Part shown: one piece after another, positions 32,406 to 59,094 of the stretch
How positions within the stretch are numbered: position 1 is the stretch's first letter
Layout: every line of letters begins with the position of its first letter
Source of the DNA: Cyanophora paradoxa CCMP329
Taxonomy: Eukaryota > Plantae > Glaucophyta
NCBI GenBank assembly: GCA_004431415.1
Contig: QPMI01000629.1
Coordinates: 62,001 to 126,000, forward strand
Length of the DNA stretch: 64,000 nt
Direction of reading: 5' to 3'
Notes under the pieces: model-generated
Told to the model about the DNA's origin: nothing
The model's input: the letters and a program-made list of their open reading frames with translations, nothing else
Database searches by the model: none
Made by a program: the position numbers and the translations under genes

Positions 32406-32519
32406 GCGGGGCATTCGCGTGCCAGCACGGGCGGCGAGCGAGCACGTGCTGCGCTGCTAGGGGCGCTCTCCACCTCGGGAACCTCTGGGTAGCCGTTAGA
32501 GAGGGGGTGCGAGTCAGTG

Positions 32520-35500
32520 ATAGATGAGGCGAGCGGCGGGGGGCAGGGGAAGCAAGGGCACGGACGGAAAGAGCCTGGCCGCTTATGGCCCGCCTGGTCG
32601 ATTCCGGCAACGGCGCCTGTACCCCTTCGACGGCTGCGGGGCTTAAGCCTGCGGGCTCTCAGTGAGACGAGACGCGGGGGGAGGGGTGCGGGTCGCGGGT
32701 AGGGGAAGGTACGACGGACCGAGGCTCGCTGCTTATGGCCCGCCTGGTCGATTCCGGCAACGGCGCCTGTACCCCCTCGGCGGCGCCCCTGCTGCGAGCC
32801 AGGCTGCGAGACGGACAGAACGCCGAGTGAGCGAGGACGGGGCGCGCGAGGGGGCGCGAGGGGGGTACACGGACCGTTGCCGGAATCGACCAAGATGCCC
32901 CTAGTGCGAGCTAGGGGCGAGGGGCGCGGGTCAGGATAGGGGAGGGTACGGACGGAAAGAGCCTGGCCGCTTATGGCCCGCCTGGTCGATTCCGGCAACG
33001 GCGCCTGTACCCCTTCGACGGCTGCGGGGCTTAAGCCTGCGGGCTCTCAGTGAGACGAGACGCGGGGGGAGGGGTGCAGGTCGCGGGTAGGGGAGGGTAC
33101 GACGGACCGAGGCTCGCTGCTTATGGCCCGCCTGGTCGATTCCGGCAACGGCGCCTGTACCCCCTCGGCCGCGCCCCTGCTGCGAGCCAGCTGCTGCGAG
33201 CCGTACGGGCCGTCGAGTGAGCGAGGGCGGGGCGCGCGAGGGCCGGGGACGCGAGGGGGGTACACGGACCGTTGCCGGAATCGACCAAGACGCCCCTACT
33301 GCGAGCCAGCTGCTGCGAGACGGACAGGCCGCCGATTGAGCGAGGGCGGGGCGCGCGAGGGCCGGGGACGCGAGGGGGGTACACGGACCGTTGCCGGAAT
33401 CGACCAAGACGCCCCTACTGCGGGCTAGCGCTGCGAGACGACCGGCCGCCGAGTGAGCGAGGGCGGGGCGCGCGAGGGGGCGCGAGGGGGGTACACGGAC
33501 CGTTGCCGGAATCGACCAAGACGCCCCTACTGCGAGCCAGCTGCTGCGAGACGGACAGGCCGTCGAGTGAGCGAGGGCGGGGCGCGCGAGGGCCGGGGAC
33601 GCGAGGGGGGTACACGGACCGTTGCCGGAATCGACCAAGACGCCCCTACTGCGAGCCAGCTGCTGCGAGACGGACAGGACGCCGAGTGAGCGAGGGCGGG
33701 GCGCGCGAGGGCGCGCGAGGGGGGTACACGGACCGTTGCCGGAATCGACCAAGACGCCTTTACTGCGAGCTTCGGGGGGCCGAGCCGCTGAATGAGGGTG
33801 GCCCTTCCCGCGCTGCTGCGGGGCCGTGAGCGTGCCGGCGCAGGCACCGAGCGAGCGCGGGCGGCGCTGCGGGGGGCGCGCACAAGCTCGGGGTTCAAAG
33901 GAAGGGTGCAGCGGAAGGCGTTGCAGAACCCGCCCAAAATTCGAAGCGCCGAGGGGAGCACGAGTCAGTGCTCACGGCGGACGGCTTGGCCGCGGGCGGG
34001 GTGCATAGTGGGCGCCACAGCTCGAACTTCGCGCCAGAGAGCTCGTCTGGCCGATACCGACCACGGCGCCTGTACTCCTCGACGGGCCTGACTCAGTGAC
34101 GGAGCTCTCGATTAGATGAGGCGAGCGGCGCGGGGCAGGGGAAGCAAGGGTACGGACGGAAAGAGCCTGGCCGCTTATGGCCCGCTTGGTCGATTCCGGC
34201 AACGGCGCCTGTACCCCCTCGACGGCTGCAGGGCTTAATTATAAGCCTGCGGGCTCTCGGCCGCGGTGTAACGAGACGCGGGGGGAGGGGTGCAGATCGG
34301 GATAAGGGAGGGTACGACGGACCGAGGCTCGCTGCTTATGGCCCGCCTGGTCGATTCCGGCAACGGCGCCTGTACCCCCTCGGCGGCGCCCCTGCTGCGA
34401 GCCAGCTGCTACGAGCCGTACGGGCCGTCGAGTGAGCGAGGGCGGAGCGCGCGAGGGCCGGGGGCGCGAGAGGGGTACACGGACCGTTGCCGGAATCGAC
34501 CAAGACGCCCCTACTGCGGGCTAGCGCTGCGAGGCGAGACGACCGGCCGCCGAGTGAGCGAGGCGGGGCGCGCGAGGGCCGGGGACGCGAGGGGTACACG
34601 GACCGTTGCCGGAATCGACCAAGACGCCCCTACTGCGAGCCAGCTGCTGCGAGACGGACAGGCCGTCGAGTGAGCGAGGGCGGGGCGCGCGAGGGCCGGG
34701 GGCGCGAGGGGGGTACACGGACCGTTGCCGGAATCGACCAAGACGCCCCTACTGCGAGCCAGCTGCTGCGAGACGGACAGGCCGTCGAGTGAGCGAGGGC
34801 GGGGCGCGCGAGGGCCGGGGGCGCGAGGGGGGTACACGGACCGTTGCCGGAATCGACCAAGACGCCTTTACTGCGAGCTTCGGGGGGCCGAGCCGCTGAA
34901 TGAGGGTGGCCCTTCCCGCGCTGCTGCGGGGCCGTGAGCGTGCCGGCGCAGGCACCGAGCGAGCGCGGGCGGCGCTGCGGGGGGCGCGCACAAGCTCGGG
35001 GTTCAAAGGAAGGGGTGCAGCGGAAGGCGTTGCAGAACCCGCCCAAAATTCGAAGCGCCGAGGGGAGCACGAGTCAGTGCTCACGGCGGACGGCTTGGCC
35101 GCGGGCGGGGTGCATAGTGGGCGCCACAGCTCGAACTTCGCGCCAGAGAGCTCGTCTGGCCGATACCGACCACGGCGCCTGTACTCCTCGACGGGCCTGA
35201 CTCAGTGACGGAGCTCTCGATTAGATGAGGCGAGCGGCGCGGGGCAGGGGAAGCAAGGGTACGGACGGAAAGAGCCTGGCCGCTTATGGCCCGCTTGGTC
35301 GATTCCGGCAACGGCGCCTGTACCCCCTCGACGGCTGCAGGGCTTAATTATAAGCCTGCGGGCTCTCGGCCGCGGTGTAACGAGACGCGGGGGGAGGGGT
35401 GCAGATCGGGATAAGGGAGGGTACGACGGACCGAGGCTCGCTGCTTATGGCCCGCCTGGTCGATTCCGGCAACGGCGCCTGTACCCCCTCGGCGGCGCCC

Positions 35501-38500
35501 CTGCTGCGAGCCAGCTGCTACGAGCCGTACGGGCCGTCGAGTGAGCGAGGGCGGAGCGCGCGAGGGCCGGGGGCGCGAGAGGGGTACACGGACCGTTGCC
35601 GGAATCGACCAAGACGCCCCTACTGCGGGCTAGCGCTGCGAGGCGAGACGACCGGCCGCCGAGTGAGCGAGGGCGGGGCGCGCGAGGGCCGGGGACGCGA
35701 GGGGGTACACGGACCGTTGCCGGAATCGACCAAGACGCCCCTACTGCGAGCCAGCTGCTGCGAGACGGACAGGCCGTCGAGTGAGCGAGGGCGGGGCGCG
35801 CGAGGGCCGGGGCGCGAGGGGGGTACACGGACCGTTGCCGGAATCGACCAAGACGCCCCTACTGCGAGCCAGCTGCTGCGAGACGGACAGGCCGCCGAGT
35901 GAGCGAGGGCGGGGCGCGCGAGGGCCGGGGGCGCGAGGGGGGTACACGGACCGTTGCCGGAATCGACCAAGACGCCCCTACTGCGAGCTTCGGGGGCCGA
36001 GCCGCTGAATGAGGGTGGCCCTTCCCGCGCTGCTGCGGGGCCGTGAGCGTGCCGGCGCAGGCACCGAGCGAGCGCGGCGGCGCTGCGGGGGGCGCGCACA
36101 AGCTCGGGGTTCAAAGGAAGGGGTGCAGCGGAAGGCGTTGCAGAACCCGCCCAAAATTCGAAGCGCCGAGGGAGCACGAGTCAGTGCTCACGGCGGACGG
36201 CTTGGCCGCGGGCGGGGTGCATAGTGGGCGCCACAGCTCGAACTTCGCGCCAGAGAGCTCGTCTGGCCGATACCGACCACGGCGCCTGTACTCCTCGACG
36301 GGCCTGACTCAGTGACGGAGCTCTCGATTAGATGAGGCGAGCGGCGCGGGCAGGGGAAGCAAGGGTACGGACGGAAAGAGCCTGGCCGCTTATGGCCCGC
36401 TTGGTCGATTCCGGCAACGGCGCCTGTACCCCCTCGACGGCTGCAGGGCTTAATTATAAGCCTGCGGGCTCTCGGCCGCGGTGTAACGAGACGCGGGGGG
36501 AGGGGTGCAGATCGGGATAAGGGAGGGTACGACGGACTGAGGCTCGCTGCTTATGGCCCGCCTGGTCGATTCCGGCAACGGCGCCTGTACCCCCTCGGCG
36601 GCGCCCCTGCTGCGAGCCAGCTGCTACGAGCCGTACGGGCCGTCGAGTGAGCGAGGGCGGAGCGCGCGAGGGCCGGGGGCGCGAGAGGGGTACACGGACC
36701 GTTGCCGGAATCGACCAAGACGCCCCTACTGCGGGCTAGCGCTGCGAGGCGAGACGACCGGCCGCCGAGTGAGCGAGGGCGGGGCGCGCGAGGGCCGGGG
36801 ACGCGAGGGGGTACACGGACCGTTGCCGGAATCGACCAAGACGCCCCTACTGCGAGCCAGCTGCTGCGAGACGGACAGGCCGTCGAGTGAGCGAGGGCGG
36901 GGCGCGCGAGGGCCGGGGGCGCGAGGGGGGTACACGGACCGTTGCCGGAATCGACCAAGACGCCCCTACTGCGAGCCAGCTGCTGCGAGACGGACAGGCC
37001 GTCGAGTGAGCGAGGGCGGGGCGCGCGAGGGCCGGGGGCGCGAGGGGGGTACACGGACCGTTGCCGGAATCGACCAAGACGCCTTTACTGCGAGCTTCGG
37101 GGGCCGAGCCGCTGAATGAGGGTGGCCCTTCCCGCGCTGCTGCGGGGCCGTGAGCGTGCCGGCGCAGGCACCGAGCGAGCGCGGGCGGCGCTGCGGGGGG
37201 CGCGCACAAGCTCGGGGTTCAAAGGAAGGGGTGCAGCGGAAGGCGTTGCAGAACCCGCCCAAAATTCGAAGCGCCGAGGGGAGCACGAGTCAGTGCTCAC
37301 GGCGGACGGCTTGGCCGCGGGCGGGGTGCATAGTGGGCGCCACAGCTCGAACTTCGCGCCAGAGAGCTCGTCTGGCCGATACCGACCACGGCGCCTGTAC
37401 TCCTCGACGGGCCTGACTCAGTGACGGAGCTCTCGATTAGATGAGGCGAGCGGCGCGGGGCAGGGGAAGCAAGGGTACGGACGGAAAGAGCCTGGCCGCT
37501 TATGGCCCGCCTGGTCGATTCCGGCAACGGCGCCTGTACCCCTTCGACGGCTGCGGGGCTTAAGCCTGCGGGCTCTCAGTGAGACGAGACGCGGGGGGAG
37601 GGGTGCAGGTCGCGGGTAGGGGAGGGTACGACGGACCGAGGCTCGCTGCTTATGGCCCGCCTGGTCGATTCCGGCAACGGCGCCTGTACCCCCTCGGCCG
37701 CGCCCCTGCTGCGAGCCAGCTGCTGCGAGCCGTACGGGCCGTCGAGTGAGCGAGGGCGGGGCGCGCGAGGGCCGGGGACGCGAGGGGGGTACACGGACCG
37801 TTGCCGGAATCGACCAAGACGCCCCTACTGCGAGCCAGCTGCTGCGAGACGGACAGGCCGCCGATTGAGCGAGGGCGGGGCGCGCGAGGGCCGGGGACGC
37901 GAGGGGGGTACACGGACCGTTGCCGGAATCGACCAAGACGCCCCTACTGCGGGCTAGCGCTGCGAGACGACCGGCCGCCGAGTGAGCGAGGGCGGGGCGC
38001 GCGAGGGGGCGCGAGGGGGGTACACGGACCGTTGCCGGAATCGACCAAGACGCCCCTACTGCGAGCCAGCTGCTGCGAGACGGACAGGCCGCCGAGTGAG
38101 CGAGGGCGGGGCGCGCGAGGGCGCGCGAGGGGGGTACACGGACCGTTGCCGGAATCGACCAAGACGCCTTTACTGCGAGCTTCGGGGGGCCGAGCCGCTG
38201 AATGAGGGTGGCCCTTCCCGCGCTGCTGCGGGGCCGTGAGCGTGCCGGCGCAGGCACCGAGCGAGCGCGGGCGGCGCTGCGGGGGCGCGCACAAGCTCGG
38301 GGTTCAAAGGAAGGGTGCAGCGGAAGGCGTTGCAGAACCCGCCCAAAATTCGAAGCGCCGAGGGGAGCACGAGTCAGTGCTCACGGCGGACGGCTTGGCC
38401 GCGGGCGGGGTGCATAGTGGGCGCCACAGCTCGAACTTCGCGCCAGAGAGCTCGTCTGGCCGATACCGACCACGGCGCCTGTACTCCTCGACGGGCCTGA

Positions 38501-40400
38501 CTCAGTGACGGAGCTCTCGATTAGATGAGGCGAGCGGCGCGGGCAGGGGAAGCAAGGGTACGGACGGAAAGAGCCTGGCCGCTTATGGCCCGCTTGGTCG
38601 ATTCCGGCAACGGCGCCTGTACCCCCTCGACGGCTGCAGGGCTTAATTATAAGCCTGCGGGCTCTCGGCCGCGGTGTAACGAGACGCGGGGAGGGGTGCA
38701 GATCGGGATAAGGGAGGGTACGACGGACCGAGGCTCGCTGCTTATGGCCCGCCTGGTCGATTCCGGCAACGGCGCCTGTACCCCTCGGCGGCGCCCCTGC
38801 TGCGAGCCAGCTGCTACGAGCCGTACGGGCCGTCGAGTGAGCGAGGGCGGAGCGCGCGAGGGCCGGGGCGCGAGAGGGGTACACGGACCGTTGCCGGAAT
38901 CGACCAAGACGCCCCTACTGCGGGCTAGCGCTGCGAGGCGAGACGACCGGCCGCCGAGTGAGCGAGGGCGGGGCGCGCGAGGGCCGGGGACGCGAGGGGG
39001 TACACGGACCGTTGCCGGAATCGACCAAGACGCCCCTACTGCGAGCCAGCTGCTGCGAGACGGACAGGCCGTCGAGTGAGCGAGGGCGGGGCGCGCGAGG
39101 GCCGGGGGCGCGAGGGGGGTACACGGACCGTTGCCGGAATCGACCAAGACGCCTTTACTGCGAGCTTCGGGGGCCGAGCCGCTGAATGAGGGTGGCCCTT
39201 CCCGCGCTGCTGCGGGCCGTGAGCGTGCCGGCGCAGGCACCGAGCGAGCGCGGGCGGCGCTGCGGGGGCGCGCACAAGCTCGGGGTTCAAAGGAAGGGGT
39301 GCAGCGGAAGGCGTTGCAGAACCCGCCCAAAATTCGAAGCGCCGAGGGGAGCACGAGTCAGTGCTCACGGCGGACGGCTTGGCCGCGGGCGGGGTGCATA
39401 GTGGGCGCCACAGCTCGAACTTCGCGCCAGAGAGCTCGTCTGGCCGATACCGACCACGGCGCCTGTACTCCTCGACGGGCCTGACTCAGTGACGGAGCTC
39501 TCGATTAGATGAGGCGAGCGGCGCGGGGCAGGGGAAGCAAGGGTACGGACGGAAAGAGCCTGGCCGCTTATGGCCCGCTTGGTCGATTCCGGCAACGGCG
39601 CCTGTACCCCCTCGACGGCTGCAGGGCTTAATTATAAGCCTGCGGGCTCTCGGCCGCGGTGTAACGAGACGCGGGGGGAGGGGTGCAGATCGGGATAAGG
39701 GAGGGTACGACGGACCGAGGCTCGCTGCTTATGGCCCGCCTGGTCGATTCCGGCAACGGCGCCTGTACCCCCTCGGCGGCGCCCCTGCTGCGAGCCAGCT
39801 GCTACGAGCCGTACGGGCCGTCGAGTGAGCGAGGGCGGAGCGCGCGAGGGCCGGGGGCGCGAGAGGGGTACACGGACCGTTGCCGGAATCGACCAAGACG
39901 CCCCTACTGCGGGCTAGCGCTGCGAGGCGAGACGACCGGCCGCCGAGTGAGCGAGGGCGGGGCGCGCGAGGGCCGGGGACGCGAGGGGGTACACGGACCG
40001 TTGCCGGAATCGACCAAGACGCCCCTACTGCGAGCCAGCTGCTGCGAGACGGACAGGCCGTCGAGTGAGCGAGGGCGGGGCGCGCGAGGGCCGGGGGCGC
40101 GAGGGGGATACACGGACCGTTGCCGGAATCGACCAAGACGCCCCTACTGCGAGCCAGCTGCTGCGAGACGGACAGGCCGCCGAGTGAGCGAGGGCGGGGC
40201 GCGCGAGGGCCGGGGACGCGAGGGGGGTACACGGACCGTTGCCGGAATCGACCAAGACGCCCCTACTGCGAGCCAGCTGCTGCGAGACGGACAGGCCGCC
40301 GAGTGAGCGAGAGCGGGGCGCGCGAGGGCCGGGGACGCGAGGGGGGTACACGGACCGTTGCCGGAATCGACCAAGACGCCCCTACTGCGAGCTGCGGGGT
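32520..40400. repeat. Higher-order satellite: ~1.0-1.1 kb units of oppositely oriented motif-bearing monomers
   Basis: Unit marker gattagatgaggcgagc at 34110, 35219, 36326, 37435, 38519 and 39503. Each unit has GGTCGATTCCGGCAACGGCGCCTGTACCCC copies followed by several GGGGTACACGGACCGTTGCCGGAATCGACC copies ~119 bp apart. Confidence 0.95.
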
Positions 40401-40869
40401 GTACAGGTCTTCGAGTGAGAGGGGGCGGACGCTGACGAGGCGCTAAGGCGGTAGAATGGACGTACCCGTAATCGACCGTGGCGCCTACACTGCGAGCTGC
40501 CTTGAGAGACCGGCCGCCGCGCGCTCTAGATCTGAGTCTGCACGCGCTGGCCATGGCGCAGCGCGTCATGCATGCATTGCACGCACGCGCAGAAGCGTGC
40601 GCATGCAGCTCTGACCCTACGCCTGTCGGGAGTCCGGAGGCTCCCGGGAATCCGGAAGCCGCCGGGAATCCCGGTCTGCGGCGCGGGATTCCCGCGCGCC
40701 TAGCGCTGCCGGGAATCCAAAAGCCTGCCACGTGCACCGGGAACCCCGAAGGCGCTGGGAATCTCGTAAGCGTGAGATATTGCTTTCCGACGGCGCGCGC
40801 CCGCGGCCGAGCAGCCGAGCTCACGCGCGCCCGAGCTCGCGCTCGAGGCGCGGGCGCGGCGGGCATCTA

Positions 40870-41142
40870 AGAGCGAGGGGACGGTGGTCAGCGCATGCCA
40901 CAAGCTCTAATGGGATCTTATTTACCGCTTGGAGGGCCGAGGAGCCCGTTGCTGAGAGAGTCAAAGTCGATGGTGCGCCGGCACACCATCGAAACGTTGC
41001 AAACTGGCCAGGGGGGAGCGGTGGGGGGGAGGGAGTAGGGGGGGTGGAACTGGAGCCACGTTGTCGCTACAACGTGGGTCAGATCTCAAGCCTGCGATCA
41101 GAATTTGAGGAACCAGAAGTTGCGAAACTACTACTACTACTA
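40870..41142 (+). mobile_element. Possible 3' end of a non-LTR retroelement with (CTA)5 tail
   Basis: Abruptly lower-GC segment ending gaagttgcgaaa(cta)5 at 41128-41142. Confidence 0.3.
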
Positions 41143-41727
41143 GGCTAGCCAAGGCGGCATGTAGGCGGCCTTGTTGCAATTGCCGCATGCGCATGCGCAG
41201 TGCGCCTTAGCTATAGAGCAATTACAACTACACGTGCACGTAGCCTAGCTATAGTAGCTTCGCCTAGTAGGGTAGTATGATCGATACGCGATATATGCCA
41301 TACCGGACGTACCCCCCGTGAAGTAGGGGTTAGATGAATTAATGGACCCGCACTAACACCGCGCAAGACGTCGGGGGGGCCCCTTCTAGCCCCTGGTATT
41401 TTTAGTGCGGCATAATGACCCGGTCCTGGGACCCTCGATCACGACTTCCGGGGGAGCCCCTTCCCTAGGAGAGGGGGGAAAGACGCGAGCAAGCGAGCCG
41501 GCGACGCCGGATTCGTGCACTACGCTCCCGGCTGCGCTAGTAGCGCGCTTGCAGCCGGCAGCGGGCGAGCCGGTGCGGCGGTGGGGCGAGATCAAATCGA
41601 GAGCGACTCCTGATCACCGAATCGGTGACTCACGAGTCGCTATGGGGGGGGGGTACAGCTAGCCGTTGGCGCGGGGGCCCCGGCGGGCGCCCTTAAAGAG
41701 ATCCCGGGAGCGGCTCGAGGCTCGGGG

Positions 41728-44700
41728 ATGGCAGAGGGGCGCGCGGGAACGCCCGTGGGATGTTCTCCGTGGTGACAGACACCTACGAGAGGGCCGAGTT
41801 CCAGGGGCCCTACGGGTGGACGGGCCTGGTCGTGCTCCGCACCGACGCGGGGCCGAGCGTCTGCGTACCCGAGCTCAGGCGCCTCATCGCGTTCACGGGG
41901 GGCGACGCGCGCCTCGGGGAGACCTTTGGGGTCCCGACGCGGCCGCTGCGGGATGAGAACACGATCCTCCTCCTGGAGCACCTCGCCGCCCTCCCCCGCA
42001 AGCACTACGACGCGCAGGAGCGCCCGCCGCACGTCCTCGCCCTGCGCTACGTCGAGACGGTCATAGGCAACTCGTGGGAGCGCTCGCAGGACGTGCGCAT
42101 GCCCCGGGCGGCGGCGGAGCTCTATGCGGCGCTGGAGAGGAGAAAGCAGGGCACCTTGCAGCGGCTCGAGATGCAGTTGATTCGGACCGGCGGCGATCGG
42201 CTCCTGGCCGTCCGGGCGCGGCGGATCGAGACGCCGGAGCTGCAGTGGTGGATCCCGCTCGCGAGCCTCGCCGAGGCGGCGTACGGCGACTCGCGCAGCA
42301 CGAACTGCGTGCGCCAGGAGATCGTGAGGAAGCACCCCGACCTCGCGGTGGGCGGGCCTCACCGGTTCGAGGCGAGCACGCGGACGGTGGGGCGCGAGCG
42401 GCTCGCCCTCCTGACCCGCACCCTCGTCCACTACGGCGGCCTGGGCGCTGACGTGGCGACGTACGGCTCCGCGCGCCGCTGGGCGTTTATCAGCGCGCTG
42501 GGTGCGAAAAGGTGCTGGCGGGGCTGCCGGACCGGGCCCCCGGGCTCGCCGCCGAGTTTAAACGAGCGCGGCTCCTCCTGGAGGGGGCCGACCCCGCGAC
42601 GCTCGACTCGGCCCCGTCGCTGCCGCTCGCCCCGGCCCCGCGCGTCTCCATCTTCGGACGCAAGACCTGGCTAAAGGTGAGCGGGGCCTCGGCGAGGTGG
42701 GGGGTAGGGAGGCGGGGAAGGGGGGGGGAGGGAGGGGGGGGGTACCGACCACGCCGCAGGACGCCGAGATCGCCAACGTCCTCTCGCTCCTGCTCCTCCG
42801 GGCGCACGCGGGGGACAAGGTCAGGGCCCTGTACCCATGCACGTCGAGATTCTCGCCTCGCTCCTCCGGCGGTACGCGCGCGCCGACGAGGCCAGGCGCG
42901 CGCGGGAGCCCTTGGCGCCGCCGAGCGCGGCGCCTGCGTGCTCTGCCCGTCAGCGTGGGCAACCTGCGGCGCGGCGGGGAGCGCACAAAGGGATGGGCCT
43001 CGGGCGCCACTGGACCCTCCTCGCCGTCGACGGGAGCGCGAAGCGCGTGGGGTACTGGGACTCGCTCGGCGCGGACCCCGAGCCGAAGCTGCAGCACGCG
43101 GCGATGGCGGCCTTTCCGCGCTTCCCGTTCGTCGTCCAGACGGGCGGCCGCCTGCAGGTGGGGACGGGTATCAGTGTGCGCGCTCGCCCGCCCCCCTCCT
43201 CCGGCCCCCTCCCCCGCGCGCCCGCGCCCCCCCTCACCTCGCCGCCGCCGCCGCCGCCGCCGCAGGCGGGCCGTGGACCCTCTGGTTCGCCGAGGTGAAG
43301 ACGCAAGAGGTGCTCACGGGCTTTCCCTGGTCCGACGAGATCGAGAGCGGGTGCCTCTCGTACGTGTACCCTGGCGAGGCTATCTCGTCGGCGATCGCGG
43401 CGGAGAACGGGCGGTTCATCGCGGAGAAGCGCGAGGCGTACCGGACGATGCTGGAGAGCGGCGTCGTCGACCAGGCCGTGGCGCTCTTCGACGAAGACTC
43501 GCTGCCGGACGCGGAGCGCGTCGTCCTCCCGCCGTCCCCGCCACGGCCGCCGCGGCGGCGGCGGCGGCCGCCGCCGCCGCCAAGTCCGTTCGAAAGGCCG
43601 GCAAGGCCGCGGCCGCGGCGGCGGCGGGGGGGCCCTCCATCACCGTCCTCTCCTCGTCCTCGTCCTCGCCGTCCTCCGAGGACGGCGGAGAGGGAGACGA
43701 GGACGGGGAAGAATCCGAGGGGCGCGCCGACGGGGACGGGGCCGACGCGCCGGCGGGGACAGAGGAGGCCCTCGCCGAAGAGGTGCACGAAGATGGGGAG
43801 CCGGGGCCGAGCGGCTCGCGCCCTACGCCCTGCGCGAGTCGGAGATGTCACGGGAGCTGAGGAACCAGCTCGCGGCGTTTCAGACGTGGCGCACCTCGGC
43901 CCTCAACCCCGACCGCCAGGGCGGCGCCGCCGAGCGCTCGACGGTCCTCGTCAACGACGTCGGCACGATCTGCCGCCTGCTGGGGTACGTCAAGGAGCGC
44001 GAACAGGTCGGGCCGCTCACGATGGACCTCTTCGCGCGCACCGATTTCGAGGAGATCTACCTCCGCTTCCTCGGCTACCTCCGCTCCGAGCGCAGGCTCG
44101 CGGCCGGCACCCTCGCGGGGTACACGCAGAGCGTGATGCAGGCCTACGCGTTCGTTCACAGCCGAACCGCCGGGGCCGAGGCGGGGGCCGATCGAGAGGG
44201 TCCGCACGCCCGCCCGCTCCGGAACCTGAAGACGCAGTTGGAGAAGGAGAAGAAGCAGCAGCGGGGGTGGAAGAAGCGCGGACCGAACTGGGTCTCGTTC
44301 GAGGCCGTCCTCTCGGCGCGGCGCGAGGCCCTCGAGGCGTTCGAGGCGGCGCCGCTCGAGCGGGACAGGGCCCTCGCCCTCCGCGAGGCCGTGCTCATCG
44401 GGTTCCTGAGCATCACGCCGGCCCGCGTGGGGGTCGTGCGGCGCCTGCAGATCGGTCAGACGCTGCGGCGCGACGGCGGCGCGTGGGCGATCTCGCTCAC
44501 CGAGATGCGGCACGAATCGGGGGAGCTGGTGTCGAAGACGGCCAAGTCGCACGGCGCGATCACGGTCCCCATCGCCAGCCCGCTCCAGGCCCCCCTCGAG
44601 ACCTACGTGGAGCGCTACCGCGGCCTCCTGCTGCCCGCCGGGCGCGCCGACGAGGGCTGGCTCTTCGCCTCGAGCAACGGCACCTGCCTCTCGGAGAGCG

Positions 44701-45572
44701 GGTGGGCCGTCTTCGTGCGCAGGGTGATGCTCAAGTACGTGGGCCTCCCGATCACTGCGAAGACGATGCGGGCGATCATCACGACGCACGTGCGGGAGCA
44801 GGCGGCGGCGAACCTGATCGAGAACGAGACCGCGGCGGCCGTCGTCGAGGGCGTCGCCCGCCTCCTCGCCCACACGCCCCAGACGGCGACCCTGCACTAC
44901 GATTACGGGGCGCGCCAGCGCTCGGCGGCGAGCGCCGTGGCGTACCTCGAGCGCCTCGCCCTCCAGCACGAGGCGCGGTCCAGGGGCTCGGCGTCGAGCC
45001 CCACGGGCCTCCCGGGCGCCTCGTCGTCGGCGCCCCCGCCGCCCCCGCCGCCGCTGCCGCCGCCGCCGCCCTCCCTCCCCTGGAGGCCCTTCCCGAGCCG
45101 CCTCCAGATCCCGACCCCGCGCAGCACCCTCCTCCTCTTCCTCCTCCTCCTCGCGATCCGCGCGCGCAGAGGGCCCGGCGCCGTCGCCCGCCGTTGCGGC
45201 GCGGCCGGCCCGCGGCGCGGCCGCCGGGGGGAAGGAGAGCGGGGCGAGGGCCGGGCCGGGGAGCGCCGGGAGCTCGGGGTCGGCCCGGGCCGCCCAGGAG
45301 AGCACCGAGACGAGTTCGGGGTCGCAAGAGGAGGAGGCGGAAGAGGAGGAGGAGGAGGAGGAGGAAGAGGAGGAGGGGAGGAGAGCGGGTCGTCCGCCGA
45401 GCGGCCCCGGAAACCGAAGCGCTTCCACTGGCAGCGCCGCCGCCTCGACCCGGGGACCAGATGGAGCTGGACTCGCCCGGGGCGAGGGCCGCTACTGCGA
45501 GACTGCAAGCGGGTAAGGAACTCCCGCCCGCGACCCCCGAGCACGCGCGCCGCGCACCCTCACCGACTGTAG
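41728..45572 (+). CDS. Bro-N-like / Ulp1-type cysteine protease / tyrosine recombinase fusion protein (2 introns; several 1-bp homopolymer frameshifts)
   Basis: Bro-N-like: VRARR..QWWIPLASLAEAAYG...WAFISALGAKRVL..LAAEFKR. Ulp1: WLK|DAEIAN across intron 42677-42759, LPV..GRHWTLLAVD (His 43008), YWDSLG (Asp 43059), Q-x-G-D-G-Y-Q-C-G-P-W with the Cys codon split T|GC by intron 43176-43265. An acidic linker follows. YR: YALRESEMSRELRNQL, TPAR (Arg 44424), SKTAKSHG (Lys 44535), KTMR (44760-44771), LAHTPQTATLHY (His 44871, Tyr 44898). Start (41728 or 41760) and stop are approximate. Confidence 0.8.
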
Positions 45573-45811
45573 ATCTTCCAGACGGCCGGGGGCCCGCCAG
45601 CACGCCCGGAGCTGTTCCGGCGGGGCGAGCCGCACGCGGGAGAGGCGGGGAGGGGCGCGGGGCACGGGCGAGGGCGCGGGCGGGTGCGGGTCGCCCGCGG
45701 CCCTCCCGCCCCGTGCACGTCGCGCAGCCGGCTTCCGAGGGGCCCCGCCTCCGACCTGGCACCTTCGGTGGGTCAGCGCGAGCCCGTACCCCCGGGCAGG
45801 TCGCGGCGGCG

Positions 45812-46400
45812 ATGGCGACGCACTCGACGGACCCGCTCCGCGGACGGTCTTTGCTCGGCTCGTCCAGACCGTGCGCCTCCCAGCGGCGAGTTCGAGTCCC
45901 GCTGGGTCGTGCTGCGGCGCTTCGGGCCTTCTGGACGCCGGGCTCCGAGGGCAGCGCGCGCGAGTGGAGGGGGTACGGGCGCTCGCGCCCGTCGACTACG
46001 ACGCGAGAAACGGAGCGTGGACATCAGGACGCCCGCCGCCCGCATCTCCGACCTCCTCGGGCTCGGCTCCGGCACGCGGCGCCGTCGCCGCCGCCTCCGC
46101 GGTCCGGGGCGGGAGCCCGGGGCGAGGGAGGGGCCTTTCGGCCGCGGGCCGGCCCCGGAAGCGCCCGGGTACCTGACTCGGGGGGTCGGTTCGGGCCCCA
46201 GCGCCCCAGGCTTGCGGACGCAGCCGGCGCGGTGCGCACCATCGGATCCGCCGTGCTCGAGAGGGGCGGGCAAAACTCCAACGGGTCCTGGGGCGAAGGT
46301 CGGCTCCGGAGGGGAGGGGGGGTACGGGTACTTTGTGCGCACCCCCACGGCGTGCCGCACCTCGTTCGATCGGGAATGACAAGGAGAGTGCGGAGAGGCG
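45812..46400 (+). CDS. Frameshifted hypothetical coding segment downstream of the recombinase
   Basis: Restoring single bases gives RTVFARLVQTVRLPSGEFESRWVVLRRFGAFWTPGSEG..GVRALAPVDYD..KRSVDIRTPAARISDLLGLG with high GC3. Confidence 0.3.
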
Positions 46401-47620
46401 GTCGGCGGGCCTCGGGGTGCCGGGGTCGAGGGGTAGATCGAAAAAACTGCGCGGGGCCGGTCTCGGGACGGGATGGGCGGCAGCGCGGGGCCGGAGGGCG
46501 AGCTTAAAGCGCACCGACGGTGCTGGGCACAACCGGAGCGCCCCGACCCGCGATCGGGCGCGGTCGGGGGATGATGGAGCCCGCCGATCCTCCGTGCCTG
46601 CCCGAACCGACGGACCGCCGCCCGCAGAGGCTCTGCGCCCCTCCCGCGCGTTCTCCGCCCCCGCGACCGGATCCAAAGCGCCAGAAGCGCGCGCCGTGGC
46701 GGAGCAGGGGCCCGCGCTGAGCGGCGGGCGGGCGGCTGCGGCGCCGCCGCGGGGCGCCTGGTCGGGGAGGCGGCTGCGACTCCTGCGAGCCATGTCAGAG
46801 CGTAGCGGGGTGGAATCGGTGCCGAAATCGCACGCGGGCACGCCTCGTCCTCGGGAACGCGTGGGGAGCAGTCGGATGGCGCGGTCGAGCGGGCTGCGAC
46901 GGATCGAGGAGCACGTGGGCGCGAGGGAAGAGCGATCGGGATGGATCGGGGCGCGAGGCGCCGCCGGCCGCTCGCTGTGCGCCGATCGGTGCGCTCGGGG
47001 GTTGGGGCGCCGGGAACAGCACGGTCGAAGCACTCGAATGTGGACGAGCAGGCCGGCCGCGTCCGCAGCAAACACGAATCTCGCCGCGAGAGCTCCCGGG
47101 GGTACGCGGCAGCGGGCGGGGTACAAGGGGATCGTGCTATGCCCGGTCCGCCTGTAGTGTGCGTAAAGCTTAAGGCCGACGAACCCACAAAGTACGATTG
47201 GCCGGCCGTCGAGGCACCTCGGAGCCGAGCCGTCACGAGGTCCGCGCAGCCGCACGCCCGGACGTGCTCTATCGCCCCCGATCCGCCGCGCATCGTTGAA
47301 CGGTCCGCCAGGGGAGCGCCTCGACCGCCTGCGCGGCTCCGCCTCGCCGCGGCGGTTATCGTTGCGAGGTGAGCGGCGCGGGACGCGCCGTCGCGACTTT
47401 GGGAGCTCGAGACGCGACGGTCGTTGGTTGAATGTCCCGTCTTCCCGCAGGAACGGCACTCGCCCCGCCCGCGGGCGCCCCGACCCTGATCACTCGTGCT
47501 GGCCATGGCGCGTGCGCGCGCCGCGAGCGCGCCCGTCGCCGGCCCGTCCGCCTCGCGACTCGGCTCGCGTTTGTCCCACGACCCCTCGCACTCCGTTTGC
47601 CGAGCGCCGCTGCAGAGGTT

Positions 47621-49447
47621 CTCGCGCCCGTACGCGTGCGGCGGGGCCCTGAGGGGCGCGCGGCGAGTTTCCAGCGGGGTCCAGATTTGGAGGCGGGGTA
47701 CGGGACCGCCCTTCTCCTCGCCCGCCCTCGGCTTCTCACGCCCGTGCAGCGGGGCCCTGAGGGGGGCGCGGCGAATTTCCAGCGGGGGAGGGTCGGGTCT
47801 GGAGACGGGTACGGGATTCCCCTTCTCTCCCTCGCCCACGGCTTCTCACGCCCGTGCAGCGGGGCCCTGAGGGAGGCGCGGCGAGTTTCCAGCGGGGGAG
47901 GGTCGGGTCTGGAGACGGGTACGGGACCGCCCTTCTCCTCGCTCGCCCTCGGCTTCTCACGCCCGTGCAGCGGGGCCCTGAGGGGCGCGGGGCGAGTTTC
48001 CAGCGGGGGAGGGTCGGGTCTGGAGACGGGGTACGGGATTCCCCTTCTCGCGCTCGCCCTCGGCCTCTCACGTCCGTGCAGCGGGGCCCTGAGGGGGGCC
48101 CTGCGAGTTTCCAGCGGGGAGGGTCGGGTCTGGAGACGGGGTACTGGATTCCCCTTCTCTCGCTCGCCCTCGGCTTCTCACGCCCGTGCAGCGGGGCCCT
48201 GAGGGGCGCGCGGCGAGTTTCCAGCGGGGGAGGGTCGGGTCTGGAGACGGGGTACGGGATTCCCCTTCTCTCGCTCGCCCTCGGCTTCTCACGTTCGTGC
48301 AGCGGGGCCCTGAGGGGGGCGCGGGGCGAGTTTCCAGCGGGGGAGGGTCGGGTCTGGGGACGGGGTACGGGATTCCCCTTCTCTCACTCGCCCTCGGCTT
48401 CTCACGTCCGTGCAGCGGGGCCTTGAGGGGCGCGGGGCGAGTTTCCAGCGGGGGAGGGGCGGGTCTGGAGACGGGTACGGGATTCCCCTTCTCTCACTCG
48501 CCCTCGGCTTCTCACGCCCGTGCAGCGGGGCCCTGAGGGGGGCGCGGCGAGTTTCCAGCGGGGGAGGGTCGGGTCTGGAGACGGGGTGCGGGATTCCCTT
48601 CTCTTTCTCGCCCTCGGCTTCTCACGTCCGTGCAGCGGGGCCCTGAGGGGCGCGGGGCGAGTTTCCAGCGGGGGAGGGTCGGGTCTGGAGACGGGGTACG
48701 GGATTCCCCTTCTCTCCCTCGCCCTCGGCTTCTCACGCCCGTGCAGCGGGGCCCTGACTGGGGCGCGGCGAGTTTCCAGCGGGGGAGGGTCGGGTCTGGG
48801 GACGGGGTACGGGACCGCCCTTCTCCTCGCTCGCCCTCGGCTTCTCACGCCCGTGCAGCGGGGCCCTGAGGGGGGCGCGGCGAGTTTCCAGCGGGGGAGG
48901 GTCGGGTCTGGAGACGGGGTACGGGACCGCCCTTCTCCTCGCTCGCCCTCGGCTTCTCACGCCCGTGCAGCGGGGCCCTGAGGGGGGCGCGGCGAGTTTC
49001 CAGCGGGGGAGGGTCGGGTCTGGAGACGGGGTACGGGACCGCCCTTCTCTCCCTCGCCCTCGGCTTCTCACGCCCGTGCAGCGGGGCCCTGAGGGGGGCG
49101 CGGCGAGTTTCCAGCGGGGTCCGGGTCTGGAGGCGGGGTACGGGACCGCCCTTCTCCTCGCTCGCCCTCGGCTTCTCACGCCCGTGCAGCGGGGCCCTGA
49201 GGGGGGCGCGGCGAGTTTCCAGCGGGGGAGGGTCGGGTCTGGAGACGGGGTACGGGACCGCCCTTCTCCTCTCCCGCCCTCGGCTTCTCACGCCCGTGCA
49301 GCGGGGCCCTGAGGGGGGCGCGGCGAGTTTCCAGCGGGGGAGGGGCGGGTCTGGAGATGGGGTACGGGATTCCCCTTCTCTCCCTCGCCCTCGGCTTCTC
49401 ACGCCCGTGCAGCGGGGCCCTGAGGGGGGCGCGGCGAGTTTCCAGCG
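47621..49447. repeat. Minisatellite, ~111-bp unit, 17 copies
   Basis: cggcttctcacgcccgtgcagcggggccctgagggg..gcggcgagtttccagcgggggagggtcgggtctggagacggggtacggga repeated. Confidence 0.95.
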
Positions 49448-49462
49448 GCCTCCTCGTACCTT

Positions 49463-50282
49463 CTGGAGACTCGCCACCACACCCGGTGAGAGGGGGGAGC
49501 GCTAGAACTCTGACCGTACCCCACACCCCCTACCCGCCCCCGAGACTCGCCGCCGCCCCGAAAGAGAGCGGCGCTTAATCTCTGACCGCACCCCTAGTCG
49601 CCTCCCTCCCGCCCCCTTGGAGACTCGCCGCTGCCCCCCAGAGAGAGAGAGTGGCGCTTAATCTCTGACCGTACCCCCACTCCCTCCCCCTCCCCCCTGG
49701 AGACTCGCCGCTGCCCCCCGAAGCAAACAGCTCTATAATATTGACCGTACCCCAGCTCCCTCCCCCTCCCCCCTGGAGACTCGCCGCTGCCCCGAAAGAG
49801 AGCGGCGCTTCATCTCTGACCGTACCCCCACCTACCTCCCCCTCCCCATTGGAGACTCGCCGCTGCCCCCCAGAGAGAGAGAGAGAGAGTGGCGCTGAAT
49901 CTCTGACCGTACCCCCACCTACCTCCCCCTCCCCCCCTGGAGACTCGCCGCTGCCCCCGAAAGAGAGTGGCGCTGAATCTCTGACCGTACCCCAGCCCCT
50001 CCCCCCTCCCCCCTGGAGACTCGCCGCCGCCCCTCGAAGCAAACGGCTCTCGAATTTCGGGCGTACCCCCCACGTACCCCCTCGTTCCAACTCCCCCGGG
50101 AGACTCGCCGCCGCCCCCGAGAGGGCGACGCTAGAAGCTCGGCCGTACCCCCAGCTACCCCCTCCCTCCCTCCCTCCCCCCCCCCTCTGGAGACTCGCCG
50201 CCGCCCCCCGAGAGAGAGCGGCGCAAAAGCTCCGAGCCGTACCCCCGGGCAGCCCCACCCCACCCCACCCCCCTGGAGACCC
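49463..50282. repeat. Diverged ~75-90 bp repeats (~11 copies) carrying the same core motifs in inverted orientation
   Basis: ccgtacccc...ctggagactcgccgc is the reverse complement of gcggcgagt(t/c)tccag...ggggtacgg in the adjacent array. Confidence 0.9.
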
Positions 50283-50694: not shown

Positions 50695-52504
50695 ATGAAG
50701 GCGGGCCGGGCCGCGGACCTCCTCCCCCCCGAAGCCCCGCCGGCGGCCCCCGATGCGGCGGTCGCGGTGCTCCTCTCCGGCGACCCCCTCTTCTACGCCG
50801 CCGTCCGAGCGCGCCGCCAGAGCGCGCGGAGGCGGCTCGACGACGTGGAGCCGGAGGAGAGGACGCGCTGCCTCTACCCCTCGCTGCACCGGGCGCGCCG
50901 CACCGTACCGGCCGACCTGGCGCCCTTTTTCCGGTCCTCCGGGGCGCCGCCGCTGCTCTCCGTTTCCGCCCTGCGGCCCCGGGAGAGCGCCTCGCTCGTG
51001 CTCGCCCCGTCGGCCGAGTGGGCCGTCGTCCACAGCTACGAGACCGACGGGTACCGCATCGTTCCCGTCCTCGCCGGCGAGCGGCCGGCGGTCGAGCCCG
51101 AGTCCGCGCCCCCCGTGCCGGGGGCGCCGAGCTGGGGGCCCGCGGCGGGGGATCCCGGCATCCTCTTCGGCCTCTGCGACGGAAGCGTCGCCCTCTACCG
51201 GCGCGGGACCTACCGCGTCGTGCCCCCGGGGGCGGCCCGCCCTACACCACGCCGGGGCCCCTGGGGAGCGTGGGGCCGCCGCGGCCGCCATCCCCGCCCG
51301 CCGCGTGCGGCGCATAGCGGCCCTCGACGAGCGCCGGGTCGCGGTGGCGGTCGGGGGAGCGAGAGCGTGCACGTGGTGGACCTGGAGACGGGGCGCTGGG
51401 AGCCCGTCTTCCGCAACTCGCACGCCTGGCTCGTCGACATGGCGGGGACGAGCGTGGGCGCCTCTGGCTCGAGTACACGAACACGGTGGCCGTCCGCGAG
51501 CCGGGCCCCGGCGGGGCCCTCTGCGTCCGCGCCCCTGGCCCCGCGTGGCCCCTCCCCCCGACGCCAGCCCCTGGGTCGTACACTCCCCCGGGGGTACCCG
51601 GTACTGGTGGTGGGCGGCGCGGTGCTGCCTCTGCGCGGGCGAGTCAGAGGGGCGGGACGCGCACACGACGCTGCGCGACGTCGTCTCCGTGCGCTACCTG
51701 CTCCCCGTCGGGGAGGCGAGGCTGCTCGCCGCCTGCCAGCGCAACTCGTTCGTCTGGGAGCCGCGGCGGCGCCGCGTCGCGTCCCTCGTCCCCCTGACCC
51801 CCGACGCGCCCCCCTCCTGGGCCGCGCCCGGGCGCGAGTCGTACCTGAGCGTCTCGCACTCGTCCTCGTACGTGCTGGGCCTCGCGACGGGCCCCGCCTC
51901 CTGGAGGCCGTTCAGCCCGAAGACGGGGGCGTGGTACCCCGAGGAGCCCGTCGCCGAGACGGCCGCCCGCCCCGATCTCTTCGAGACGTTTGGCGTCCCC
52001 GTGAGCACGTACGCCTACGCGAGCCGCCGCGGCTCCGTCCTCGCCCTCTACCGGCGCCCCCGCTACGATTCGGTCGCCGCCGGCCGGGGTACGAGCGCGG
52101 TCGACGTCTTCTGGCCCCAGCGGGGCCTGCGGGCGGGGCCCTACCGCGTCCCCTTTCGCGTCGAAGGCTCGGTCGCCGTGCACCGCGGCGTGCGCTTCAC
52201 CCCCGACGAGCGAGCGATCGTGATCCCCAGCGCGACGGGGTACAGCATCTTTCCCCTCCCCTACGCCCCCTCGGATCCGAATTCGAGCGCCTCGGCGGTC
52301 TCGAGCTCTAGATCTTGTTCACGATCGGCCGAGCTGGAGGGGCCGGGCGCAGAGCCTGCGGCGCCGCCGGCCGCCGCCGCCGGCACCGGCACCGACACCG
52401 GATCTAGGTCCGGATCCGGAGACGTCGACGCGATTGGCGTGCCGCAGGAGCCCGCGCGAGAAACTCTAGCTAGGCAGGCGCCGGCATGCGCAGGCTTCAT
52501 CTGA
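50695..52504 (+). CDS. Apparently intronless, frameshifted beta-propeller-like protein
   Basis: Stitching frames gives ILFGLCDGSVALYR, VRRIAALDERRVAVAVGGSESVHVVDLETGRW, VRYLLPVGEARLLAACQRNSFVWEP and VRFTPDERAIVIPSATGYSIFPLP, which are blade-like beta-strand patterns. GC3 is very high. Confidence 0.55.
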
Positions 52505-52815: not shown

Positions 52816-53700
52816 CCTTCTCGGCCCTTCTGGAAAGAGTGCTTTGATAAATATTGCCGGCTGTCTGGTGCCCTAATTAATCTCGAGAAGTCTAACCTTC
52901 TTCCGCTCCGCGATATTCCTGCGGACGTGTGGCCTAGCGTCGAGGACTGTCCCTGGCGGCGTCTCCAGGTGACGGATCTCCCTCCCGCTGAGAAAATTCG
53001 CAAGTACTTGGGCTTTCCGCTTGAGCCCAATCTGTCTCGATTCTGGCGTAAGAAAAATGCTGCTCTTGATATTCGTGTGCAGCAAGCGAAAACCTATCGC
53101 ATGCCGATGCGCTCCGGCGTTCTCCTTGCCTGGGCGGTCTTTATTGGATCCCTGCATTATGCTCTGTATTTGCTTGACCCCCCCGATGCCCAGTATTCTA
53201 CATGGCAAGAGAAGCTTCGCTCTTTTGCCGGCGTGAGTGGGCAACTTTCGAAGTATATTTCTCCTCTGCCGTGGCATCAAGGTGGTCTCAATTGCCCTGA
53301 TATTCGTGTCTTTTCTTTATCACTGAAAATGAAGTGGGTGGCCTTGTTGGCTGACCCGTCCTGTTCGGCTCCTTGGAAGGAGTACCTCTTGAGCAAACTG
53401 GACGTTCAGCTGGCGCCCTTTTCCTACGGCCCCGCCTTTATCTCGCTTCGTCTCCCACTTGGCGGTCTTGACTTGCCTCCTATTTGGAAGCAGGCTTTCT
53501 CGGAGTGGGCTCAGCGCCAGGGCGTGTGTCAACCTCGTACTTCACTCGAAGTTTTATCCCAACCTCTTTTCTTTAATCCCTTGTTCGATGCTCCGGGTGC
53601 CGAGGTTGACTGGAGTCGCTGTGCACGGTCTGGCTTGCTGCGGGTCTGCGATATCTGGGATTGTACCACCCGGCGATTCCGGACTCCACCAGCTGCCTCC
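52816..53700 (+). mobile_element. L1/Tx1-clade LINE ORF2 fragment (end of RT and thumb region)
   Basis: FDKYCRLSGALINLEKS, RKYLGFPL and LPWHQGGLNCPDI are typical non-LTR RT C-terminal motifs. T-rich composition differs from the flanks. Confidence 0.85.
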
Positions 53701-58798: not shown

Positions 58799-59094
58799 GA
58801 TCGTCGAGCACCGGCCGTCGGCGCGCGCAGCCGCAGCTGCAGGCTGCAAATGCGGTGATGAGCGCTAGTACGCGTACGGCGTGGCGCACAGCGGCCGGCG
58901 GCGCGGCTACCGTAGTACCGGGGTAGGGCCGCTAGGCTAGCTATCATAGACTAAGATTCGAATTCATAGTACTACGGTACATAGCTAGGTCACAGCCTAG
59001 GTGTGTGCACGTGTGGGCGTATCGCTAATTTTGCGGGGTAATATAAGGCTGCTTCTCATCCGCTAGCCTGAGCTAGGGAATTATGGTGGAGCCG

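What the first reader, a model, noticed from the sequence alone, without database searches (positions are those of the whole stretch)
41728..45572. Hidden Bro-N / Ulp1-protease / tyrosine-recombinase polyprotein with spliceosomal introns
Seen: the ORF track fragments this locus. Removing two GT-AG introns (42677-42759, 43176-43265) and restoring single bases, mostly in C/G runs, gives one reading frame. It contains the Ulp1/SENP motifs WLxDxxI, HWxLL, YWDS and QxxDGYQCG (a complete His-Asp-Cys triad), an acidic linker, and a tyrosine recombinase with R, K, KxxR, H and Y. Known: Ulp1-like (peptidase C48, clan CE) domains occur in Mutator-like elements (KAONASHI). Bro-N domains are typical of large DNA viruses and phages. 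YRs mobilise Cryptons, DIRS, fungal Starships and some Polinton-like viruses. Inference: I do not know this three-domain architecture from any named eukaryotic element. The protease could strip SUMO/ubiquitin-like marks to counter silencing at the integration site, or process the polyprotein.
Basis: partly seen in the sequence, partly recalled or inferred. Interest (0 to 1): 0.92.

Follow-up and report, generated by a model that had tools for sequence, protein, structure and literature searches.

The report
Algal recombinase with built-in SUMO eraser
A repeated three-intron gene, likely of the alga Cyanophora, is predicted to make one protein that joins a DNA-binding domain, a tag-removing protease, a likely SUMO-binding patch and a DNA recombinase, which would let a mobile element strip host control tags where it recombines, while the RNA found over the gene is spliced on the opposite strand.

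Summary
Real, with corrected limits. It is 84% identical over 1,318 residues, without stops, to an intact 1,346-aa Cyanophora paradoxa paralogue. Short-read contigs carry exactly the missing bases in 6 of 6 intervals tested, so those frameshifts are assembly errors. Domains: Bro-N/Dachshund-type fold (Z 9.6), CE-clan protease with His-Asp-Cys (best Z 16.7, a deSUMOylase), a SUMO-interacting-motif-like patch, a tyrosine recombinase (XerC/D, E 1e-7), then zinc-finger-like and AT-hook-like ends. The stretch is at roughly 3-5 times flank depth. New here: RNA contigs from two studies skip seven stretches, all GT-AG introns on the minus strand, so a spliced antisense RNA covers the gene; no sense-spliced contig was listed. 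C48 protease plus YR is already known in oomycete Cryptons, and this scan found the same fusion in other windows of this genome. The YR lacks CryptonF/A and Starship marker domains and belongs to a broad, apparently unnamed eukaryotic lineage; two environmental relatives share the fusion. Element ends are not fixed. New variant of a known kind; interest 0.5.

The parts
41296..46435 (.). Multi-copy stretch holding the gene (left edge = assembly-graph branch; right edge only where cover drops, not a proven end)
   Evidence: X7 contig 41296-41570 depth 404 against 129.6 for 41129-41325 and 73-80 for unrelated contigs; X1 flank contig 40450-41325 depth 82.8 against 194-326 inside; bin 46432-46625 depth 10.5, but a hole proves nothing and X1 is again at 344 over 47354-47650
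41760..42676 (+). Exon 1: start codon, N-terminal domain(s), start of protease
   Evidence: paralogues P0003, P0005, P0008, P0162, P0186 begin MFS at the same place
41772..42164 (+). Bro-N / Dachshund-Ski / APSES-type DNA-binding fold (predicted)
   Evidence: AlphaFold blocks of residues 11-120 at pLDDT 78-89; Dachshund 1l8r Z 9.6, rmsd 2.9, 94 aligned; Ski Z 8.1; Mbp1 Z 5.9; 29 of the top 50 viral matches are named Bro/Bro-N, best E 4.3e-3, none at E<=0.001
42165..42590 (+). Second conserved N-terminal module, fold not resolved
   Evidence: conserved in paralogues; pLDDT mostly under 50; no repeat of module 1 by hhalign
42677..42759 (+). Intron 1 (GT-AG), predicted
   Evidence: join matches P0003/P0162; not seen spliced in RNA contigs
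42650..43531 (+). CE-clan (Ulp1/SENP-like) cysteine protease; His codon 43008, Asp 43059, oxyanion Gln 43155, Cys codon split by intron 2 (43175 + 43266-67)
   Evidence: Pfam C48 20.6 bits on a 54-aa piece, cut-off 20.7; phmmer of P0162 to 9qte E 5.3e-5; model pTM 0.81; best Z 16.7 SnCE1, 14.5 NEDD8 protease, 13.3 Ulp1; codon places
43176..43265 (+). Intron 2 (GT-AG), predicted; splits the catalytic Cys codon
   Evidence: masked in both read layings
43639..43710 (+). SIM-like patch (I-T-V-L, then serines and acidic residues) in the low-complexity linker 43532-43811
   Evidence: consensus hXhh plus acidic/phosphoserine flank from PMC8616421 (passages)
43812..44990 (+). Tyrosine recombinase: R 44424, K 44535, K 44760 (in place of the first His), R 44769, H 44871, Y 44898
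   Evidence: family profile hits XerC-like 4a8e E 1.2e-7, XerD E 5e-7; R 52/52, K 51/52, R 49/52, H 48/52, Y 44/52 in the alignment; no indel in DNA contigs over 43973-44974
45513..45572 (+).
   Evidence: join matches P0162 CERIFQT
45496..46176 (+). C-terminal part: CxxC..HxxxC zinc-finger-like motif, a conserved domain of unknown fold (about 45740-46075), AT-hook-like RGRP tail, stop TGA 46174-46176
   Evidence: shared with P0004, P0186; the motif names are recalled, no Pfam hit
   Evidence: RNA? runs X18, X19 (study P18) and X20, X23 (study P19); placements; chance of a CT..AC placement 0.7% per skip; DNA contigs span the same places unskipped. Several short contigs, not shown to be one transcript
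41348..41410 (.). 9-bp inverted boxes 45 bp apart, 50 bp inside the left edge; possible recombinase or accessory site
   Evidence: no control run, may be chance

Best explanation
This is the repeated, probably intact mobility gene of a likely Crypton-like DNA element: one predicted 1,400-residue protein whose tyrosine recombinase would excise the element as a circle and re-insert it, while the attached CE-clan protease, likely guided by a SUMO-binding patch, would strip SUMO-type tags from host proteins at the recombination site. Shown: one collinear frame after three introns, with the checked frameshifts absent from short reads; catalytic residues of both enzymes; several near-identical copies and at least four diverged subfamilies with the same domain order; minus-strand spliced RNA over the gene. 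Inferred: sense splicing and translation; DNA binding by the Bro-N-type, zinc-finger-like and AT-hook-like parts (end or target recognition); SUMO as substrate (about 0.55, against NEDD8 or ubiquitin); circle excision (by analogy with Cryptons); the antisense RNA as a non-coding brake on the gene.
For: Frame and errors. Domain order kept in 8 of 9 C. paradoxa gene models examined (P0003-P0007, P0009, P0162, P0186; P0008 lacks the protease), YR identity to the window down to 46%; H, D and C motifs kept wherever the model includes that stretch. Same protease-YR order in environmental P0033 and P0055, with a shared YPM motif and post-catalytic helix. Protease fold closest to SnCE1 (Z 16.7), described as an efficient deSUMOylase (PMC13125535, abstract). 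SIM-like pattern upstream of the YR in 6 of 10 protease-bearing proteins against 1 of 61 other relatives, 0 of 2000 shuffles. Other members of this YR lineage carry chromo, PHD or BAH domains, which points to chromatin. Precedent: C48 with YR in Cryptons; Ulp1 on Ginger1/Mutator transposases.
Against: No sense-spliced RNA contig was listed; the contigs over intron 1 are antisense-spliced or read into it. Fold scores do not separate substrates: a deubiquitylase (Z 15.8) and NEDD8 protease (14.5) follow closely. The SIM pattern was written after seeing these sequences, the six hits are related sequences, 4 of 10 lack it, and SIM consensus matches are often false. No terminal direct repeats or empty site could be shown. 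The first catalytic His is Lys (28 of 52 relatives too). Gene models are predictions from an error-rich assembly.
Confidence: 0.68

Rival explanations
1. The gene is the terminal integrase ('captain') of a much larger, 30-48 kb capsid-less or virus-derived element that goes on to the right through the 111-bp array and the genes at 50-59 kb; same enzyme mechanism, larger cargo.
For: The gene starts 460 bp inside the left edge of the multi-copy stretch; X1 depth is again about four times flank at 47354-47650; a related repeat motif recurs at 49.5-50.3 and 63-64 kb; atlas features of the YR match a Preplasmiviricota cluster at 0.97; P0186 runs into a GIY-YIG domain; unchecked scan notes report 33-48 kb units with this fusion.
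Against: No capsid, primase-helicase, histone H3 or GIY-YIG signal in this window: 116 of 300 listed ORFs scanned in Pfam gave one weak unrelated hit, GIY-YIG tblastn best E 0.37, no H3 motif; these tests are weak on short, error-broken exons. No relative in viral contigs. Cover drops after about 46435.
Confidence: 0.35
2. The protease cuts the polyprotein itself (adenain/pS273R/I7L style) to free the recombinase, and host tags are not its main substrate.
For: Viral processing proteases share the fold (adenain Z 13.1, pS273R 12.5, I7L 11.5); a long flexible linker with Gly-Gly pairs lies between the domains in several paralogues; SnCE1 also autoprocesses (abstract).
Against: Ubiquitin-like proteases score higher; by eye no Gly-Gly is kept at one linker position (absent before the SIM-like patch in P0162); most relatives in this YR lineage lack the protease (only 9 proteins scored clearly with the protease profile among 162 held), so the YR does not need it.
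Confidence: 0.12
3. The copies are silenced or decaying relics (or a domesticated gene); the live product of the locus is the antisense RNA.
For: Only antisense-spliced RNA contigs were listed, in two studies; one antisense frame stays open over 162 codons in the 5' part.
Against: No stop codon in 1,318 aligned codons, sense GC3 0.95-0.96, all catalytic residues present, near-identical copies; the antisense piece over the YR has stops in all three frames.
Confidence: 0.15
4. The YR is a resolvase for replication or co-integrate intermediates of an element moved by another enzyme.
For: In marine relatives the YR lies beside a pogo-type DDE gene inside long inverted repeats (L012) or beside a telomere-resolvase gene (L033).
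Against: The DDE gene was found in 1 of 79 loci and not in the window.
Confidence: 0.1

Closest known systems
Oomycete CryptonF-2_PS-type and CryptonS elements (Kojima & Jurka 2011, PMC3212892; passages read, supplements searched without hits)
   Same: Eukaryotic DNA element with a tyrosine recombinase and a C48/Ulp1-type peptidase.
   Different: There the peptidase is 'in addition to' the YR (CryptonF-2_PS; fusion or order not visible to me, the figure is not held) or a separate protein (CryptonS). Here it is fused N-terminal to the YR, behind a Bro-N-type domain; no GCR1_C domain; glaucophyte host; terminal direct repeats not shown.
Ginger1 and Mutator transposases with Ulp1 domains (PMC2836005, passages read)
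   Same: Ubiquitin-like protease fused to the mobilising enzyme; same proposed role in transposition.
   Different: DDE transposases with TIRs, protease C-terminal; here a YR.
Polinton-like-virus tyrosine recombinases (PMC12721341, passages read; atlas)
   Same: YR as integrase; Bro-N genes occur in the same viruses; YR features match a Preplasmiviricota cluster.
   Different: No capsid, ATPase or polymerase gene found nearby; spliceosomal introns; three domains in one chain.
Starship captains (DUF3435; PMC11162782, passages read)
   Same: YR gene at the 5' edge of a possibly large element.
   Different: No DUF3435 match; non-fungal; extra protease.
CE-clan proteases SnCE1 (Simkania), NEDP1/SENP8, SENP/Ulp1
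   Same: Fold and His-Asp-Cys triad; LQxDGYQCG motif shared with SnCE1.
   Different: 24% identity or less; substrate untested; embedded in a recombinase.

Membership tests
Crypton (general) | YR with catalytic R-H-R-Y set as the mobilising enzyme | tested here: met
   R, K, K(H), R, H, Y present; profile hits XerC/XerD; the first His is Lys
Crypton (general) | Repeated in the genome | tested here: met
   contig depth about 3-5 times flank; nine related gene models
Crypton (general) | 4-6 bp terminal direct repeats, no TIRs | tested here: inconclusive
   right end not fixed; no convincing end repeat
Crypton (general) | Excision as a circle, empty sites | not testable with these tools
   no genome held; only contigs laid
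CryptonF | C-terminal GCR1_C domain | tested here: not met
   full-length P0162 gives only C48 and Phage_int_SAM_1 at E<=10
CryptonA / DUF3504 group | YR matches DUF3504 | tested here: not met
   no hit for P0162; not among the 25 of 31 families shown for 52 relatives
CryptonS | YR clusters with CryptonS; conserved C-terminus; TATGG termini | not tested
   no CryptonS sequences were available from the tools
Starship | DUF3435 captain | tested here: not met
Polinton-like virus | Capsid and packaging ATPase genes, TIRs | tested here: inconclusive
   none found in 116 ORFs and no kilobase-scale inverted repeat in the window, but PLV capsids often escape Pfam (recalled) and the element's extent is unknown
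DIRS/Ngaro retrotransposon | RT-RNase H next to the YR, LTR-like repeats | tested here: not met
   no RT hit in the ORFs scanned around the gene; no flanking long repeats
Peptidase clan CE (C48-like) | His-Asp-Cys order, oxyanion Gln, CE fold | tested here: met
Peptidase clan CE (C48-like) | SUMO-specific cleavage | not testable with these tools
   needs an assay; indirect support
Bro-N (PF02498) | Sequence match to the family | tested here: inconclusive
   no Pfam or PHROG hit, but the fold matches Bro-N proteins weakly (best E 4.3e-3) and Dachshund/Ski/Mbp1

The most novel reading that the evidence does not exclude
An unnamed superfamily of eukaryotic tyrosine-recombinase elements, spread through algae and other protists, whose recombinases carry swappable chromatin tools (chromo, PHD, BAH readers, or a SIM-guided SUMO eraser). 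In Cyanophora the SUMO-erasing form captains large capsid-less elements and is held in check by a spliced antisense RNA laid over the whole gene: an arms race between a SUMO-erasing integrase and antisense control in the earliest-branching plastid lineage.
Probability: 0.3. Interest if true: 0.8.

Novelty: new variant of a known kind. Interest (0 to 1): 0.5.

Why it matters
Ulp1-type domains recur on unrelated transposons, and the papers read here only suggest a role in transposition. This gene puts protease, a SIM-like patch and a recombinase on one chain, with intact paralogues and natural relatives lacking the protease, so the question 'do mobile elements erase SUMO to move?' becomes testable with single-residue mutants. 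It also adds a glaucophyte branch of a broad YR lineage that matches no Crypton or Starship marker domain, and shows spliced antisense RNA over a mobile-element gene in a little-studied alga.

Tried and rejected
No whole genome is held, so other copies' flanks, empty sites and the right end could not be read. Word-based homologue search with the YR found nothing within 216-688 aa; the profile library found 235 proteins. No relatives in viral contigs for P0162 (0 of 28 candidate stretches) or the marine clade (0 of 46). The 52-sequence alignment was too variable for the locus search. Atlas gave no usable hit for the N-terminus. A tandem repeat of the N-domain was not supported (hhalign probability 0.1), nor a link to N-domains of marine relatives (0.4 and 1.1). 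No run is on record as RNA; the RNA label is a guess, supported here only by splice junctions absent from DNA contigs. Stretches without RNA cover, and the masked intron 2, say nothing about sense expression. A coding role for the antisense RNA: stops in all frames over the YR, one open in-register frame in the 5' part, which high GC3 alone can give. End search: no direct or inverted repeat over 13 bp between the left edge and 46150-47700. Tree: the careful search did not finish; on a 34-row quick tree (32 of the 66 rows dropped to save time) Cyanophora and the environmental protease group (P0033, P0055 and truncated P0031) are separate, but one clade is not rejected (p-AU 0.083). No Crypton, DIRS, Starship or PLV reference sequences were in the trees. 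Literature: searches listed no paper on this element or on antisense RNA over it; subscription papers and Repbase entries are not searched, and bioRxiv supplements are closed.
Full report
What is there. The closest database proteins are Cyanophora paradoxa gene models, so the window is very likely from this glaucophyte (inference). One of them, P0162 (1,346 aa), is an intact paralogue. It maps collinearly from 41760 to beyond 46150. With introns 42677-42759, 43176-43265 and a third one, 45513-45572, removed, a frameshift-aware alignment gives 1,318 aligned residues, 83.8% identity, no stop and 22 shifts.

The frameshifts are assembly errors where they can be checked. Seventeen DNA runs hold 77-80% of the words; three were laid. 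The alignment needs 6, 5, 1, 0, 0 and 0 inserted bases in 42383-43173, 42589-43173, 43589-43886, 41667-42325, 43973-44513 and 44518-44974; the contigs show 6, 5, 1, 0, 0 and 0 gaps there. In 45472-46253 the contig has 20 extra bases; two lie in intron 3, and the other 18 agree in frame with the 12 net shifts found after 45474, because six fall in a low-complexity linker (my arithmetic). The stretches 43532-43588 and 45017-45159 were masked by the tool, and 45160-45470 was not among the listed pieces, so the shifts there rest on the paralogues only.

Domains. N-terminus: the model of the window's own first 249 residues is confident for about residues 11-120 and matches Dachshund (Z 9.6, rmsd 2.9, 94 aligned), Ski (8.1) and Mbp1 (5.9); 29 of the top 50 viral matches are named Bro proteins, none at E<=0.001. 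So the fold is of the Bro-N/KilA-N/APSES/Dachshund kind (grouping recalled); family membership is open. Protease: a P0162-based model (pTM 0.81) has 29 matches at Z>=8 among 48,161 chains, led by SnCE1 (16.7), OtDUB (15.8), SseL (14.8), NEDD8 protease (14.5), SENP3 (14.1) and Ulp1 (13.3), with a gap to 4.8 below; SnCE1 is also the best sequence hit (E 5.3e-5) and is reported as a deSUMOylase (PMC13125535, abstract only). His, Asp, Gln and Cys are present in the window. Recombinase: a 52-sequence profile hits XerC-like, XerD, Int, XerA and XerH structures (best E 1.2e-7); R 52/52, K 51/52, R 49/52, H 48/52 and Y 44/52 are conserved, and the first His is Lys in 28 of 52. The C-terminal part has a CxxC..HxxxC motif, a domain shared only with paralogues and an RGRP tail (names recalled).

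A SUMO link. The linker has I-T-V-L followed by serines and acidic residues, which fits the SIM consensus hXhh with an acidic or phosphoserine flank (PMC8616421, passages). A pattern for such motifs hits the 130 residues before the YR in 6 of 10 protease-bearing proteins and 1 of 61 other relatives (0 of 2,000 shuffles reach six). I wrote the pattern after seeing these sequences, the hits are related, and SIM matches are often false, so this is a lead that favours SUMO, not proof.

Family. The YR finds 235 proteins at E<=0.001 among 1.84 billion representatives. Eight of nine Cyanophora models keep protease and YR in one chain and form a clade (100). Two environmental proteins, P0033 and P0055, have protease, YR and a chromodomain, and share the YPM motif and the helix after the catalytic core; they are not sister to the Cyanophora clade in quick trees, though one clade is not rejected (p-AU 0.083). 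Other relatives carry chromo, PHD or BAH domains, mostly weak hits. None was found in viral contigs; 79 loci of a marine subgroup came from metagenomes.

Copy number and ends. Contigs inside 41296-46435 have depths of 194-326 in X1 against 82.8 for the left flank, and 218-404 in X7 against 73-80 for unrelated contigs: about 3-5 near-identical copies, taken with the tool's warning that depth is no copy number. The left edge is a graph branch at 41296, with a lesser one at 41129. The right end is open: cover drops after about 46435 but a filter can cause holes, and X1 is at 344 over 47354-47650. No end repeat was found, and no capsid, helicase, histone or GIY-YIG gene in the window (weak tests).

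RNA. All seven read CT..AC, that is GT-AG on the minus strand, with branch-site-like CTGAY/CTCAC words in most; a random skip of these lengths has such a placement 0.7% of the time. DNA contigs cross the same places unskipped. Three introns recur in both studies. No GT..AG joint on the plus strand was listed; the joint table is complete (4 rows) for X20 and X23 at a 15% share, that is cut (15 of 62 rows), and intron 2 is masked. The antisense piece over the YR has stops in all frames; the 5' piece has one open frame in register with the sense codons. I read it as a non-coding antisense transcript; a regulatory role is inferred.

Comparison with what is known. Kojima and Jurka (PMC3212892; passages; supplements searched with no hit; figures not held) report C48 peptidase with YR in CryptonF-2_PS-type elements and as an extra protein in CryptonS. 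Ulp1 domains also ride on Ginger1 and Mutator transposases (PMC2836005; passages). So the pairing is known. The Bro-N-type domain, the N-terminal fused position, the SIM-like patch, the host and the YR lineage (no GCR1_C, DUF3504 or DUF3435) are the differences. Eight searches listed no description of this element. Earlier notes of this scan describe the same fusion in other windows of this genome, some inside 33-48 kb units, and spliced antisense RNA over a helicase gene of another element; they are unchecked and are not counted as support.

Verdict. A real, probably intact, multi-copy recombinase gene that works like a Crypton YR with a built-in ubiquitin-like protease, most likely SUMO-directed; membership in a named Crypton group is not shown. 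New variant of a known kind; interest 0.5.

Noticed in passing
window 41728-41775: Short upstream ORF (15 codons) in another frame overlaps the true start at 41760; DNA contigs show no indel here, so it is real and could dampen translation.
   Followed up: partly
window 1-7100, 21400-25760, 31380-40500, 47680-49530, 62980-64000: Five tandem arrays (about 610, 149, 1100/119, 111 and about 120 bp units); those right of 31 kb are rich in a GGGGTAC word, and a GGAGACTCGCCG word recurs at 49.5-50.3 and 63-64 kb.
   Followed up: partly
window 53900-58800 (-): Multi-exon, frameshifted gene read by eye, with an ATPase-like Walker A stretch split by an intron near 55550-55650; no Pfam hit on the ORF pieces.
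   Followed up: no
window 52816-53700 (+): Lower-GC ORF that looks like the C-terminal part of a non-LTR retrotransposon ORF2 (recalled resemblance; no Pfam hit).
   Followed up: no
window 50700-52310 (+): Frameshifted gene with the same codon bias as the YR gene and no Pfam hit; possible cargo.
   Followed up: no
L012:4323-7460 and 16078-19215: Perfect inverted repeats of at least 3,138 bp enclose a related YR gene and a pogo-type DDE transposase gene; L003, L011 and L017 share the inner repeat edge. A linear element or an assembly artefact.
   Followed up: partly
L033:6531-18571: Related 1,444-aa YR ORF lies near a telomere-resolvase (ResT/TelK) gene (E 4.7e-15) and a DEAD-type helicase: possibly a linear plasmid- or virus-like element.
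   Followed up: no
P0186 (paralogue gene model): Same architecture with a GIY-YIG nuclease appended after the RGRP tail; no such domain found downstream in this window.
   Followed up: partly
window 44272 and 40597-40919: Runs differ from each other (44272 A>G in X7 and X17 but not X1; different flank letters in X17), so strains or lines vary at this locus.
   Followed up: no
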